IMG/VR virus record: IMGVR_UViG_2571042862_000001
Strand: one strand, 5' to 3'
DNA: 63,762 nt
Origin: a virus
Lineage: Duplodnaviria; Heunggongvirae; Uroviricota; Caudoviricetes
Shown here: positions 30,361 to 33,300 of the stretch, in pieces
Position numbering within the stretch: the first letter of the stretch is position 1
Layout: every line of letters starts with the position of its first letter
Position numbers and translations under genes: made by a program
The notes under the pieces: generated by a model
Database searches by the model: none
The model's input: only the letters and a program-made list of their open reading frames with translations
What the model was told of the DNA's origin: nothing

Positions 30361-33300
30361 AAGAACTGTGCTATGGATCTGTTTGCAGTGGAATTGAAGC
30401 CGCGAGTATTGCCTGGGAACCGTTGGGTATGCGTCCGGCGTGGTTTGCTGAAATAGAGCCTTTTCCATCTGCCGTTCTTGCGCACCGCTGGCCCCATGTC
30501 GCCAACCTTGGCGACATGACAAAACTCGCCCAAAAAGTCCAGGCTGGAGAAATTGAAGCCCCTGATGTGCTGGTGGGAGGGACACCATGTTTTACCGCGG
30601 GGCATATGGTTCTTTGTAAAAATGGTTATAAACCAATAGAAGATGTTTGCCCTGGCGATTACGTAGTCAGTCATCTCGGGCGGTTACAACAAGTAAAAAG
30701 AGTTGGTTCAAAAATAGCTAATACGGGGTTACTTAATGCCGTTGGGCAGCCTTTAGGTATAAGAACAACCAATGACCATCCCTTCCTGGCGGTTCGGTGG
30801 AAAGCCCAAAACACCCGGAAAAATGGCACATATTTTAAGAGAGAGTTGTTGTCTGAACCGGAATGGCGAGCAGCATGTGATATGCCGGGATATCAATGGT
30901 GTGCTCTAACTAATTTCAATATTGCATCTCCAGATATTTGTTCTCGGTTCTTGTCTGAAGAACAGGCTATGTATCTTGCGGGCGCTTATGTTGGCGATGG
31001 ATATATTAGGAGATGGAAAGGTAAATCTAAGAAGGCGGTTGTTTTTGGCATAAATTGCCAGAAGTTGAGAAAGTTTCATTGCCGCATACCAGAAAACATA
31101 TTTTCCGTGGCAAGCGAAATCCGAGGGAGCATCAAAGTAACCTTGAATGATACGTGTTATGCCAATTGGCTTAATGAACATTTTGGCGAGTTAAGCCATG
31201 CTAAGCGTATCCCTGCATGGGTGATGTCGCATCCATTGCGTCATGTGTTTTTACAAGGCTATCTTGATACTGATGGGACACCAAGTGGTAAAGCGGGATT
31301 TAGAATTAATAGTGTTAGTCCTGCGCTTGCTTGGGGCGTTGCGGAGTTGTCACAGACTTGTGGTTATGTTTCTTCGGTCAGCTTTATTGAAGTTGAGCCC
31401 AAAAAAGTGATTGAGGATCGCGTGGTAAATCAACGGAATTATTATCAGGTAACAATCTGCCCGCAGAAATTGTCACGTAAATCAAGATTGGCTCATGGAA
31501 TGCTTTTACGAACAGTCAAAGAGTTTAAATCGGTAGGCCTAGATACTGTATACAACATAGAAGTCGAAGGTGATCATTCCTATATCCTCAATGGTGCGGT
31601 GGTCCATAACTGTCAGGCATTCAGTATCGCGGGATTACGTGGTGGGCTTGATGATGAGCGTGGCGCGCTAACTTTAAAGTATGTGGAGCTTGCAAATGCA
31701 ATTGACGACAAACGGGCTGAGTCATTTCTCAAACCAGCCGTTATCGTCTGGGAAAATGTCCCAGGAGTCTTGTCATCGGCAGATAACGCCTTCGGATGTT
31801 TCCTTGCTGGATTGGCTGGAGAAGATGTGCCATTTGAACCAGGTGATCGACCTGAATCAGGAAAAAGCAACGCGTTCTGGCGGTGGGATGGCAAAACCGG
31901 TTGCCATGTTCCAAAGTGGCCGCAGTGTGGTTGTATTTATGGACCGCAGCGAAAGGTGGCCTGGAGAATCCTTGATGCCCAATACTTCGGAGTGGCACAA
32001 CGACGCCGACGCGTGTTTGTTGTCGCAAGTGCTCGAACAGACCTCGATCCCGCAACGGTACTTTTTGAGTTCGAAGGCGTGCGCCGGAATATTGCGCCGA
32101 GCAGAGGCGAGGGGAAGGAAACTACCAGATATACTTCAGACATCGCTATCAGATCTTGCGATGATACAAACATAGTTGCCATGGCACATGGGCAAGGAGG
32201 GGCTGAGATAAAAACCGATAATTCGGCACCAACTTTGACATGTAACCATGAAGCACCAATTGTATTGCTCGGCGACGGTAGAATGCGCCGTCTTACCCCT
32301 GTCGAATGTGAAAGGCTGCAAGGTTTTCCTGATGGACATACATTGATCCCTACGGAAAAGCGTAAAAAAGTTTCTTCAGATGAACTGGCATACCTTCGCA
32401 AAAACTCTCCTGATTTGAACGAAGAAGAGGCTGCAATGCTTGCAGCTGACGGACCGCGTTACAAAGCGATCGGCAATAGTATGGCGATACCAGTAATGCG
32501 CTGGATTGGCGAGCGGATAACCAAGGCTGCATGTCGGCAGAATGAAGGGCGTGAAACAAAAGAGCGAAAAGTTAAACCAGCGGCAGAATTCGAACGGTCC
32601 ATATTCAAATGGGCTGGTGGAAAATTTGGTGTTCTGGAACAAATCTTTCGCTATTTGCCAGAAGGGAAGCGCCTGATTGAACCTTTCGTCGGTGGTGGAG
32701 CTGTCTTCATGAATGCCGGATACCAGGAAAATCTGCTAAATGATGTGAATGCTGACCTGATTAACTTTTACAAGACTCTGCAACGCGAGGCGCATTCACT
32801 TATCACTCTGGCACATCGGTTCTTCCAGGACTACAACACCCAGGAGGGATTCCTGGCAGTACGGAATGCGTTTAACAAACAAGTCTATGATGATTTACAT
32901 CGCGCAGCGGCGTTTTTGTTCCTGAACCGACATTGTTTTAACGGATTGACGCGTTACAACCAGGCCGGTGAGTTCAATGTCGGTTATGGGAAGTATAAAA
33001 CTCCGTATTTCCCATTACAGGAGATGGAAGCCTTCCTCGGTGCGGAAGGGCGGTCTGAGTTTGTATGCGGTGATTTTGCAGCGGTGATTGAAGCTGCCGG
33101 AGAAGGAGATGTCATCTTTTGCGATCCGCCGTATGAACCGCTTCCAAATACAGAGGGATTCACGAACTATTCCGGTCATGACTTTAAGTTTGAAGAGCAA
33201 AAACGCCTGGTGTCTCTGTTGACGGATGCTCATCGTCGAGGTGCAAAGGTTCTCATTACTAACAGTGGCGCGCCAAACATCAGAGAGCTTTATCATGACA

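What the first reader, a model, noticed from the sequence alone, without database searches (positions are those of the whole stretch)
30588..31610. Intein with LAGLIDADG homing endonuclease splitting the catalytic PCQ motif of the Dmt methyltransferase
The 1013-codon dmt ORF reads ..VLVGGTP then [27 protein letters not shown] (intein block A), TNDHPF (block B), [11 protein letters not shown] and [11 protein letters not shown] (two LAGLIDADG motifs), ..[15 protein letters not shown], then [12 protein letters not shown]. Removing nt 30588-31610 (341 codons) joins GGTP to CQAFS, recreating the canonical C5-MTase motif IV around the catalytic Cys. Inteins typically occupy catalytic sites like this, and the endonuclease domain implies a mobile, homing-competent element inside an anti-restriction enzyme gene.
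Basis: partly seen in the sequence, partly recalled or inferred. Interest (0 to 1): 0.8.

Follow-up and report, generated by a model that had tools for sequence, protein, structure and literature searches.

The report
Intein inside phage P1-type Dmt methyltransferase
The DNA methyltransferase gene (dmt) of this P1-like phage-plasmid is interrupted, immediately before its catalytic cysteine, by a 341-codon self-splicing protein element (an intein) carrying a homing endonuclease; about 30% of P1-like dmt genes have it and I found no paper describing it, but it is an ordinary example of a well-known kind.

Summary
The dmt ORF (30357-33398, 1013 aa) contains an in-frame 1023-nt insert (30588-31610). 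Intein-less dmt alleles lack it precisely, reading GGTP|CQAFS.

- **Identity.** The insert has all the hallmarks of a class-1 intein: Cys1, TNDH block B, C-terminal His-Asn, and +1 Cys, which is the PCQ catalytic Cys. It also has two LAGLIDADG motifs with their acidic residues. A confident AlphaFold model (pLDDT 92.5) matches PI-SceI, TliVMA and PI-PfuI.
- **Distribution.** It is patchy: 152 of 492 dmt-bearing complete E. coli genomes and 133 of 497 PLSDB plasmids carry it. It is also in a laboratory P1 isolate.
- **Evidence of spread.** Intein copies differ by about 0.7%, while flanks differ by up to 3.7-10%. It sits in three Dmt length variants.
- **Linked marker.** A silent marker (Pro77 CCA, not CCT) accompanies it in 40 of 40 copies.
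- **Wider family.** Related inteins occupy the same site in C5-methyltransferases of many phages and bacteria.

Splicing and cleavage are inferred, not shown. The endonuclease domain shows only weak constraint (pN/pS 0.52). The "anti-restriction" label is unverified. Verdict: a real, new member of a known kind, of moderate interest.

The parts
29090..29106 (+). C1 repressor operator (Odmt/Op68) overlapping promoter Pdmt of the uhr-hrdC-dmt operon
   Evidence: The window is 99% identical to the annotated P1 reference region, and the operator ATTGCTCTAATAAATAT is identical.
30357..33398 (+). dmt ORF, 1013 codons plus stop: the precursor made of N-extein, intein and C-extein
   Evidence: ORF list. 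98% identical to dmt of P1 isolate OP279344. Pfam finds PF00145 and PF02086.
30357..30587 (+). N-extein, 77 aa: C5-methyltransferase motifs up to GGTP of motif IV; the last codon is Pro77 = CCA
   Evidence: Alignment A1. CCA is present in 40 of 40 intein-bearing copies and CCT in 8 of 8 intein-less copies.
30588..31610 (+). Intein, 341 codons (Cys78 to Asn418 of the precursor)
   Evidence: Precise gap in intein-less alleles. Hint_2, LAGLIDADG_3 and TIGR01443 hits. AF2 model pLDDT 92.5; PI-SceI and TliVMA as top folds.
30588..30590 (+). Intein Cys1 (TGT), the block A nucleophile
   Evidence: Sequence. Invariant in 13 aligned family members and in 40 P1-type copies.
30768..30779 (+). Block B: T61-N-D-H64 (TxxH)
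   Evidence: T61 and H64 are invariant in alignment A2 and in 40 of 40 copies.
30921..31469 (+). Nested LAGLIDADG homing-endonuclease domain (intein residues ~112-294)
   Evidence: PF14528 hit at intein residues 221-284. The model's alpha/beta secondary-structure elements span residues 124-292. Foldseek hits to I-DmoI and I-SceI cover this part.
30975..31001 (+). LAGLIDADG motif 1 (LAGAYVGDG; acidic residue D137)
   Evidence: Sequence. D137 is invariant across the family and in 40 of 40 copies.
31251..31277 (+). LAGLIDADG motif 2 (LQGYLDTDG; acidic residue D229)
   Evidence: Sequence. D229 is present in 11 of 12 distant relatives and in 40 of 40 copies.
31470..31610 (+). C-terminal Hint subdomain (blocks F and G: [21 protein letters not shown]), ending in His340-Asn341
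   Evidence: TIGR01443 hit. Phmmer match to the Spl DnaX mini-intein C-terminus.
31611..31613 (+). +1 Cys (TGT): the splice-junction nucleophile and the catalytic Cys of C5-MTase motif IV (P-C-Q)
   Evidence: Alignment A1. PF00145 matches from profile position 71 at residue 419.
31611..32609 (+). C-extein part 1: the remainder of the C5-cytosine methyltransferase domain (ENV, QRRRR, variable target-recognition segment, GNS motif)
   Evidence: PF00145 and TIGR00675 hits in four stretches. The variable segment is seen in A1.
32610..33395 (+). C-extein part 2: Dam-type N6-adenine methyltransferase domain
   Evidence: PF02086 at residues 752-987, E=1.5e-56; TIGR00571 at 250 bits.

Best explanation
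Nucleotides 30588-31610 encode a canonical class-1 intein with a nested double-motif LAGLIDADG homing endonuclease. It is inserted between Pro77 and the catalytic Cys of motif IV (P-C-Q) of the C5-cytosine methyltransferase half of the P1-type bifunctional Dmt. The proposed mechanism runs as follows. (1) The uhr-hrdC-dmt operon is transcribed from the C1-repressed promoter Pdmt. This is shown only by sequence identity to the annotated P1 operator. (2) A 1013-aa precursor is made. Its C5-MTase active site is split, so that half should be inactive; the C-terminal Dam domain is uninterrupted. This step is inferred. (3) The intein excises itself: an N-S acyl shift at Cys1, trans-thioesterification to the +1 Cys, cyclisation of Asn341 assisted by His340, then an S-N shift. 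The products are a 672-aa Dmt identical in architecture to natural intein-less alleles and a free 341-aa intein. This is inferred from the complete set of conserved residues and from strong purifying selection on the Hint part. (4) When an intein-less dmt allele shares a cell with an intein-bearing one (mixed infection, or superinfection of a lysogen carrying another P1-like plasmid), the free intein cuts the uninterrupted GGTP|CQ-coding site. Repair copies the intein, together with a short flank that includes the silent CCT-to-CCA change. This step is inferred from population patterns, and homologous recombination without cleavage could produce the same pattern.
For: Precise 341-aa gap in intein-less alleles. 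Profile hits to Hint_2, LAGLIDADG_3 and the intein C-terminal model. AF2 model with pLDDT 92.5 and pTM 0.89; Foldseek top hits are bifunctional inteins: PI-SceI 4e-17, TliVMA 5e-16, PI-PfuI 2e-10, PI-PkoII 7e-9. C1, T61, H64, D137, D229, H340 and N341 are intact, with no stop codons, in 40 of 40 P1-type copies. Hint-domain pN/pS is 0.10 (P=2e-4). Distribution is patchy: 152 intein-bearing against 339 uninterrupted among 492 dmt-bearing complete E. coli genomes, and 133 against 363 in PLSDB. Intein mean pairwise difference is 0.7%, against 4.9% for the N-extein, 1.8% for the C-extein and 1.3% for hrdC. The window's flanks are closest to intein-less alleles (8 differences in 1712 nt), yet its intein is 100% identical to that of CP057476, which has a different Dmt length variant. 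In E. albertii the flanks are 3.7% diverged and the intein 0.7%. Pro77 is CCA in 40 of 40 intein-bearing copies and CCT in 8 of 8 intein-less copies; an uninterrupted CCA junction occurs in 0 of 5426 genomes, against 122 for CCT. Related inteins (22-55% identity) sit at the same motif IV site in C5-MTases of about 35 species and about 48 viral contigs. The HE domain is nearly as conserved as the Hint domain among 48-53% relatives (42-47% against 50-56%).
Against: There is no experimental evidence for splicing or cleavage. Within the P1-type population the endonuclease domain shows only weak constraint (8 synonymous and 15 non-synonymous changes, pN/pS 0.52, P=0.1), so the nuclease may be decaying or already inactive. 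Spread across alleles could result from ordinary homologous recombination between co-resident P1-like elements. Pfam Hint_2 only just reaches its cut-off (28.5 against 28.4), and Intein_splicing falls below its cut-off (22.1 against 35.8). Sequence-only search of the PDB was weak (best E=0.0015). The population samples are phylogenetically non-independent.
Confidence: 0.85

Rival explanations
1. The element is a splicing-competent intein whose endonuclease is no longer active. It persists because imprecise loss would destroy Dmt, and it moves between P1-like elements only by general homologous recombination in its conserved flanks.
For: HE-domain pN/pS is 0.52 and not significantly below neutral, whereas the Hint domain is at 0.10. 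P1-like dmt flanks are 95-100% identical, giving ample homology for recombination. Dmt variable-segment forms also reassort independently.
Against: Both LAGLIDADG acidic residues are intact in 40 of 40 copies, with no frameshifts or stops. The HE domain is retained at 42-47% identity in distant relatives, with D137 and D229 kept in 11 of 12. The intein is far less diverse than its immediate flanks (0.7% against 4.9%), as expected for a recent sweep.
Confidence: 0.3
2. The insert is a degenerate, non-splicing Hint/LAGLIDADG insertion that has knocked out the C5-methyltransferase half of Dmt, leaving only the Dam half useful.
For: C5 methylation by P1 Dmt is described only as 'perhaps' in the reference annotation, so its loss might be tolerated. 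In Mannheimia the homologous intein sits in a gene whose C-extein is truncated 23 aa after the +1 Cys (P0011).
Against: All splicing residues are conserved in 40 of 40 copies, and the Hint domain is under strong purifying selection (pN/pS 0.10, P=2e-4). That would not be expected if splicing were irrelevant. The C5-MTase motifs downstream (ENV, QRRRR, GNS) are intact and identical to those of intein-less alleles.
Confidence: 0.07
3. The insert is a bacterial intein-like (BIL) or other Hint autoprocessing domain, or a free-standing homing-endonuclease gene fused in frame, rather than a true intein.
For: The best Pfam Hint hit is Hint_2 (PF13403), a model that also covers non-intein Hint domains.
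Against: The insertion lies at a catalytic motif of a conserved enzyme, with precise boundaries. It has the canonical His-Asn and +1 Cys, and the TIGR01443 intein C-terminal model scores above its cut-off. The endonuclease is nested between the N- and C-terminal Hint halves, as in PI-SceI.
Confidence: 0.03

Closest known systems
PI-SceI (S. cerevisiae VMA1 intein) and the archaeal TliVMA, PI-PfuI and PI-PkoII inteins
   Same: A bifunctional class-1 intein: a Hint splicing domain split by a double-motif LAGLIDADG endonuclease, with Cys1, TxxH, His-Asn and +1 Cys, inserted at a conserved active-site motif of the host protein. These are the top structural matches.
   Different: Only 11-17% sequence identity. 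The element is smaller (341 aa against 454 or more for PI-SceI and PI-PfuI). The host is a phage-plasmid DNA methyltransferase rather than a V-ATPase, RNR or polymerase.
Actinobacteriophage DNA-methylase inteins (N6/N4 methylases: PMC9957025, PMC5050341; C-5 methylase IPR001525 listed in bioRxiv 10.1101/2025.01.02.630785)
   Same: LAGLIDADG-containing inteins in phage-encoded DNA methyltransferases, with patchy distribution and evidence of horizontal transfer between divergent alleles.
   Different: Those are in phages of Actinobacteria. The best-studied ones are in N6/N4 (PF01555) methylases at other sites. No paper found describes the P1/Enterobacteriaceae Dmt intein.
Uncharacterised 'C5-MTase motif IV' inteins in other phages and bacteria (e.g. 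the Mannheimia haemolytica 'DOD-type homing endonuclease / Hint domain-containing protein' P0011; Metarhizobium album L021; Lachnospiraceae, Chloroflexota and Pseudonocardia loci)
   Same: The same insertion point, immediately before the catalytic Cys. The same architecture, with invariant C1, T61, H64, D137, N341 and C+1. The exteins are PF00145 once spliced in silico.
   Different: 22-55% identity to the P1-type intein. Their exteins are single-domain C5-MTases, without the fused Dam domain in the cases examined. They are annotated only automatically.
Intein-less P1 Dmt (NC_005856 dmt, 754 aa; MH422554, 672 aa)
   Same: The same gene, operon (uhr-hrdC-dmt) and C1-controlled promoter. The extein is 90-99% identical.
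   Different: They lack the 1023-nt insert and carry CCT rather than CCA at Pro77.

Membership tests
Canonical (class 1) intein | In-frame insertion in a conserved host protein, precisely absent from homologues | tested here: met
   A 341-aa gap lies exactly between GGTP and CQAFS in MH422554 and the P1 reference. 339 uninterrupted alleles occur among E. coli genomes.
Canonical (class 1) intein | N-terminal Cys/Ser nucleophile (block A) and TxxH (block B) | tested here: met
   Cys1 and T61-N-D-H64 are invariant in alignment A2 and in 40 of 40 copies.
Canonical (class 1) intein | C-terminal His-Asn followed by a Cys/Ser/Thr +1 extein residue (block G) | tested here: met
   The sequence reads ...VVHN|C. 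TIGR01443 scores 25.9-28.9 bits against a cut-off of 15.6.
Canonical (class 1) intein | Hint (Hedgehog/intein) fold | tested here: met
   AF2 model pLDDT 92.5. Foldseek hits to PI-SceI, TliVMA and PI-PfuI at E 4e-17 to 2e-10, and also to mini-inteins. Pfam Hint_2 scores 28.5 against a cut-off of 28.4. The fold is a prediction, not a solved structure.
Canonical (class 1) intein | Autocatalytic protein splicing that yields ligated exteins | not testable with these tools
   The only indirect support is Hint-domain pN/pS of 0.10, P=2e-4.
LAGLIDADG homing endonuclease (monomeric, double-motif) | Two LAGLIDADG motifs, each ending in a catalytic acidic residue | tested here: met
   LAGAYVGDG (D137) and LQGYLDTDG (D229). 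PF14528 scores 36.6 bits against a cut-off of 22.5. Both residues are conserved in 40 of 40 copies.
LAGLIDADG homing endonuclease (monomeric, double-motif) | Pseudo-dimeric alpha-beta-beta-alpha-beta-beta-alpha fold | tested here: met
   The model's secondary structure over residues 124-292. Foldseek hits to I-DmoI and I-SceI at E~1e-4 covering ~180 residues.
LAGLIDADG homing endonuclease (monomeric, double-motif) | Site-specific cleavage of the intein-less allele, and homing | not testable with these tools
   The population signatures are compatible: patchy distribution, low intein diversity and the linked CCA marker. However, HE-domain pN/pS is 0.52 and not significant.
C5-cytosine DNA methyltransferase (PF00145), the host protein | Motif IV P-C-Q and the other motifs are contiguous once the insert is removed | tested here: met
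   In the 672-aa intein-less allele, PF00145 matches residues 8-135 to profile positions 5-119 without a break. In the window protein the match restarts at residue 419, profile position 71.
Bacterial intein-like (BIL) domain | A Hint domain without a nested endonuclease, in variable regions of non-conserved (often secreted) proteins, usually lacking the canonical +1 nucleophile context | tested here: not met
   Here an endonuclease is nested in the Hint domain, the site is an enzyme active-site motif, and HN|C is canonical.

The most novel reading that the evidence does not exclude
The intein may be more than a passive parasite. Its +1 Cys is the methyltransferase's catalytic Cys, and Cys1 and Cys+1 flank the junction. 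Splicing could therefore act as a conditional (for example redox- or timing-dependent) switch that delays C5 methylation relative to Dam methylation during P1 lytic growth. Separately or in addition, the released endonuclease could act as a weapon that cuts rival intein-less P1-like phage-plasmids in co-infected cells and shapes competition among them.
Probability: 0.12. Interest if true: 0.65.

Novelty: new member of a known kind. Interest (0 to 1): 0.4.

Why it matters
- **Unreported despite being common.** P1 is one of the most-used phages in E. coli genetics, and P1-like phage-plasmids are common carriers of resistance genes. Yet about 30% of their dmt genes, and about 3% of complete E. 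coli genomes, carry an intact intein. I could not find it reported in the papers I could search.
- **Experimentally tractable.** It offers a natural system in E. coli for studying protein splicing and homing. A laboratory P1 isolate (OP279344) already carries it.
- **Annotation and function.** Dmt size variants are annotated only as "Dam family methyltransferase". Functional work on Dmt C5 methylation must also take into account a precursor whose active site is split.
- **A wider pattern.** The catalytic-Cys position of C5-methyltransferases is a recurrent intein site in phages of many phyla.

Tried and rejected
- **PDB by sequence.** Only weak hits came back (Spl DnaX mini-intein at E=0.0015, PI-PkoII at 0.054). 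I therefore used structure prediction and Foldseek instead.
- **Homologue search with the intein.** It returned mostly partial proteins and few distant relatives. Pattern scans of genome and viral contigs were far more informative.
- **Literature.** One query failed because a term was too short. Eight further searches found no paper on a P1/Dmt intein.
  - The apparent hits PMC11437467 and PMC12282955 mention inteins and P1 in unrelated contexts.
  - A DOI look-up I made from memory for a paper on plasmid-prophage diversity (10.1016/j.virol.2017.12.019) is not held. Prior description in subscription journals or in the InBase registry therefore cannot be excluded.
- **Rejected readings.** A group I/II intron or free-standing endonuclease gene does not fit: the insert is in frame, has no stops and has Hint halves on both sides. 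A BIL domain fails the membership test. The antisense ORFs in the region (for example 30906-31181, minus strand) I regard as mechanical ORF calls; no evidence supports them and I did not test them further.
- **GC content.** The intein is at 0.42-0.45 and the exteins at 0.48-0.54. This fits a foreign origin, but the difference is too small to stand as evidence by itself.
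Full report
**1. Observation**

The ORF at 30357..33398 (+) encodes 1013 aa. It reads ...DVLVGGTP, then [20 protein letters not shown]..., then ...[15 protein letters not shown], then [12 protein letters not shown].... On the DNA, TGT at 30588-30590 is the first codon of the insert and AAC at 31608-31610 is the last. TGT at 31611-31613 is the following Cys.

**2. The insert is precisely absent from other alleles**

A megablast of the gene against phage records found P1-family dmt genes of three kinds:
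- full-length matches (OP279344 "P1 del res del mod");
- matches covering exactly 66% of the query, which is 3042 minus 1023 nt (MH422554 and others);
- matches that differ in a middle segment (reference P1, Ro157c2YLVW, RCS47).

The protein alignment shows that MH422554 Dmt (672 aa, 99% identical to the window's exteins) and reference P1 Dmt (754 aa) lack exactly residues 78-418 and read GGTP|CQAFS. OP279344 (1013 aa) and Ro157c2YLVW (1095 aa) carry the insert.

In the 672-aa allele, Pfam PF00145 matches residues 8-135 to profile positions 5-119 without a break. In the window protein the match restarts at residue 419, profile position 71. The insert therefore splits motif IV immediately before the catalytic Cys.

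**3. What the insert is**

Profile searches gave the following:

| Model | Score (bits) | Cut-off (bits) |
|---|---|---|
| LAGLIDADG_3 | 36.6 | 22.5 |
| Hint_2 | 28.5 | 28.4 |
| TIGR01443 intein C-terminal region | 25.9-28.9 | 15.6 |
| Intein_splicing | 22.1 | 35.8 (below cut-off) |

There were also weak matches to intein-containing RNR, GyrA, RFC and DnaB models.

Sequence search of the PDB was weak. I therefore built a 13-sequence alignment (A2) and predicted the structure. The model has mean pLDDT 92.5 and pTM 0.89. Foldseek against the PDB returned bifunctional inteins first: PI-SceI (E=4e-17), TliVMA intein (5e-16, TM 0.63), PI-PfuI (2e-10) and PI-PkoII (7e-9). Stand-alone LAGLIDADG enzymes (I-DmoI, I-SceI) and mini-inteins followed.

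The residues that define a class-1 intein are all present: Cys1, T61-x-x-H64, His340-Asn341 and +1 Cys. So are the acidic residues of both LAGLIDADG motifs, D137 in LAGAYVGDG and D229 in LQGYLDTDG. A bacterial intein-like domain, an intron and a free-standing endonuclease gene do not fit these features.

**4. Distribution**

| Collection | Records or genomes with dmt | Uninterrupted junction | Intein-bearing |
|---|---|---|---|
| Complete E. coli genomes (5426) | 492 genomes | 339 | 152 genomes |
| PLSDB plasmids | 497 records | 363 | 133 records |

The PLSDB intein-bearing records come from E. coli, E. fergusonii, E. albertii, Salmonella and Shigella, almost all of them non-mobilizable plasmids of roughly 65-140 kb, typed IncY or "IncHI1B" in the eight I fetched. 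So roughly 30% of P1-like dmt genes carry the intein.

OP279344 is a laboratory P1 isolate cited in two Argonaute papers.

**5. Evidence that it moves between alleles**

I first compared 11 intein-bearing and 8 intein-less loci.

Mean pairwise difference by segment, among the intein-bearing loci:

| Segment | Mean pairwise difference | Maximum |
|---|---|---|
| Intein | 0.7% | 1.5% |
| N-extein | 4.9% | 10% |
| First 480 nt of the C-extein | 1.8% | 3.5% |
| hrdC | 1.3% | 2.2% |

- The window's hrdC and Dam flanks are closest to intein-less alleles (8 differences in 1712 nt). Its intein, however, is 100% identical to that of CP057476, whose Dmt is the 1095-aa form.
- In E. albertii the flanks differ by 3.7% from every other locus, yet the intein is 99.3% identical to the window's.
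- The intein occurs in three extein length variants: 672, 754 and 807 aa.
- The Pro77 codon next to the insertion is CCA in all 40 intein-bearing copies, including 27 from IMG/VR and 2 from the genome collection. It is CCT in all 8 intein-less copies.
- A 40-mer spanning an uninterrupted junction occurs in 122 E. coli genomes with CCT and in none with CCA.
- Two N-flank haplotypes accompany the intein (30 and 10 copies). They differ at five silent sites in 24 nt.

These patterns are what homing with co-conversion predicts. Ordinary homologous recombination between co-resident P1-like elements predicts them as well.

**6. Selection**

All 40 copies are open and keep every catalytic residue. Polymorphisms by domain were as follows.

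| Domain | Synonymous | Non-synonymous | pN/pS | P |
|---|---|---|---|---|
| Hint | 9 | 3 | 0.10 | 2e-4 |
| Endonuclease | 8 | 15 | 0.52 | 0.1 |

Splicing is clearly maintained. Constraint on the nuclease in this shallow sample is weak and not demonstrable.

At greater depth the endonuclease domain is retained. It is 42-47% identical in the 48-53% relatives, against 50-56% for the N-terminal Hint part, and both acidic residues are kept in 11 of 12 relatives.

**7. Wider family**

The closest non-P1 relatives (45-55% identity) are in viral contigs and genomes that encode Dmt-like C5-MTases with the same GGTP|C...N|CQAFS junction. Examples are Metarhizobium album and Mannheimia.

More distant relatives (22-40%) sit before the catalytic Cys of other C5-MTase subfamilies. 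The junction types are GSP|CQDLS, GFP|CQDYS, SPD|CKHFS and SPE|CTNHS. They come from Firmicutes, Actinobacteria, Chloroflexota, Bacteroidota and Proteobacteria: about 35 species representatives and about 48 of 52 viral contigs. Six of these, spliced in silico, are PF00145 across the junction. Still more distant hits are inteins of archaeal RNR, IMPDH and other proteins.

**8. Mechanism (inferred)**

The C1 operator and Pdmt promoter of the P1 uhr-hrdC-dmt operon are conserved upstream, at about 29090-29106. Expression should therefore follow C1 derepression.

The 1013-aa precursor has a split C5-MTase active site and an intact Dam domain. Standard class-1 splicing would use the +1 Cys, which afterwards serves as the methyltransferase nucleophile. 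It would release a 672-aa Dmt and a 341-aa endonuclease. In a mixed infection the endonuclease could cut intein-less dmt and convert it.

Neither splicing nor cleavage has been shown.

**9. Comparison with what is known, and novelty**

Inteins with LAGLIDADG domains at active sites are textbook. Inteins in phage DNA methylases have been described for actinophages (PMC5050341, PMC9957025), and a 2025 preprint lists C-5 methylase among the reported hosts (10.1101/2025.01.02.630785).

I found no paper describing the P1/Enterobacteriaceae Dmt intein. Subscription literature and intein registries were not searchable. Automatic annotation already labels some copies "Hint domain-containing" or "LAGLIDADG family homing endonuclease".

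It is therefore a new member of a known kind. Its interest is moderate: it is prevalent and experimentally tractable in a classic model phage.

The reference annotation calls Dmt a bifunctional methyltransferase.

Noticed in passing
window ~32100-32420 (Dmt residues ~583-690); L004, L002, L005, L006: The variable (target-recognition) segment of the C5-methyltransferase half of Dmt exists in at least three unrelated length forms, giving exteins of 672, 754 and 807 aa. These reassort independently of the intein, which suggests swapping of specificity modules among P1-like elements.
   Followed up: partly
window 30585-30587 (Pro77 codon) and 30564-30587: A silent CCA (not CCT) at the last N-extein codon is perfectly linked to intein presence: 40 of 40 against 0 of 8, and no uninterrupted CCA junction in 5426 E. 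coli genomes. Two distinct 24-nt N-flank haplotypes accompany the intein (30 and 10 copies), which may mark two invasion events or co-conversion tracts.
   Followed up: partly
window 34072-34318 and 35759-35834: The window has a tRNA-Asn / tRNA-Tyr / tRNA-Thr cluster plus a CAT-anticodon tRNA. In the regions fetched, the reference P1 annotation shows only Asn and Thr here, while Ro157c2YLVW also has the extra tRNA-Tyr.
   Followed up: no
P0011 (Mannheimia haemolytica; also L135/L136) and P0025 (Rodentibacter pneumotropicus): In Mannheimia an intact homologous intein (48% identity; seen on 578 contigs) sits in a C5-MTase gene whose C-extein ends 23 residues after the +1 Cys. In Rodentibacter the annotated methyltransferase ORF begins inside a C-terminal intein remnant. 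These look like decaying stages of the same intein family.
   Followed up: no
NZ_CP074817.1 (H175); CP142546.1 (H161); L156: Some copies are disrupted. In NZ_CP074817.1 the match is in two pieces, spans ~1.8 kb more than the query, and overlies an IS91-family transposase together with separate 'DNA cytosine methyltransferase' and 'Dam family' annotations, suggesting an interrupted dmt. In CP142546.1 the intein match breaks at nt 813. A distant viral relative has three in-frame stops.
   Followed up: no
NZ_CP007392-CP007394 (E. coli ST2747), NZ_CP015229: Five intein copies, three of them 100% identical to the window's, lie on records labelled as chromosomes rather than plasmids. These could be integrated P1-like elements or assembly artefacts.
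   Followed up: no
window 30588-31610 against its flanks: The intein's GC content (0.42-0.45) is lower than that of the surrounding dmt exteins (0.48-0.54). This fits acquisition from a lower-GC donor; the relatives in viral contigs span GC 0.35-0.70.
   Followed up: partly
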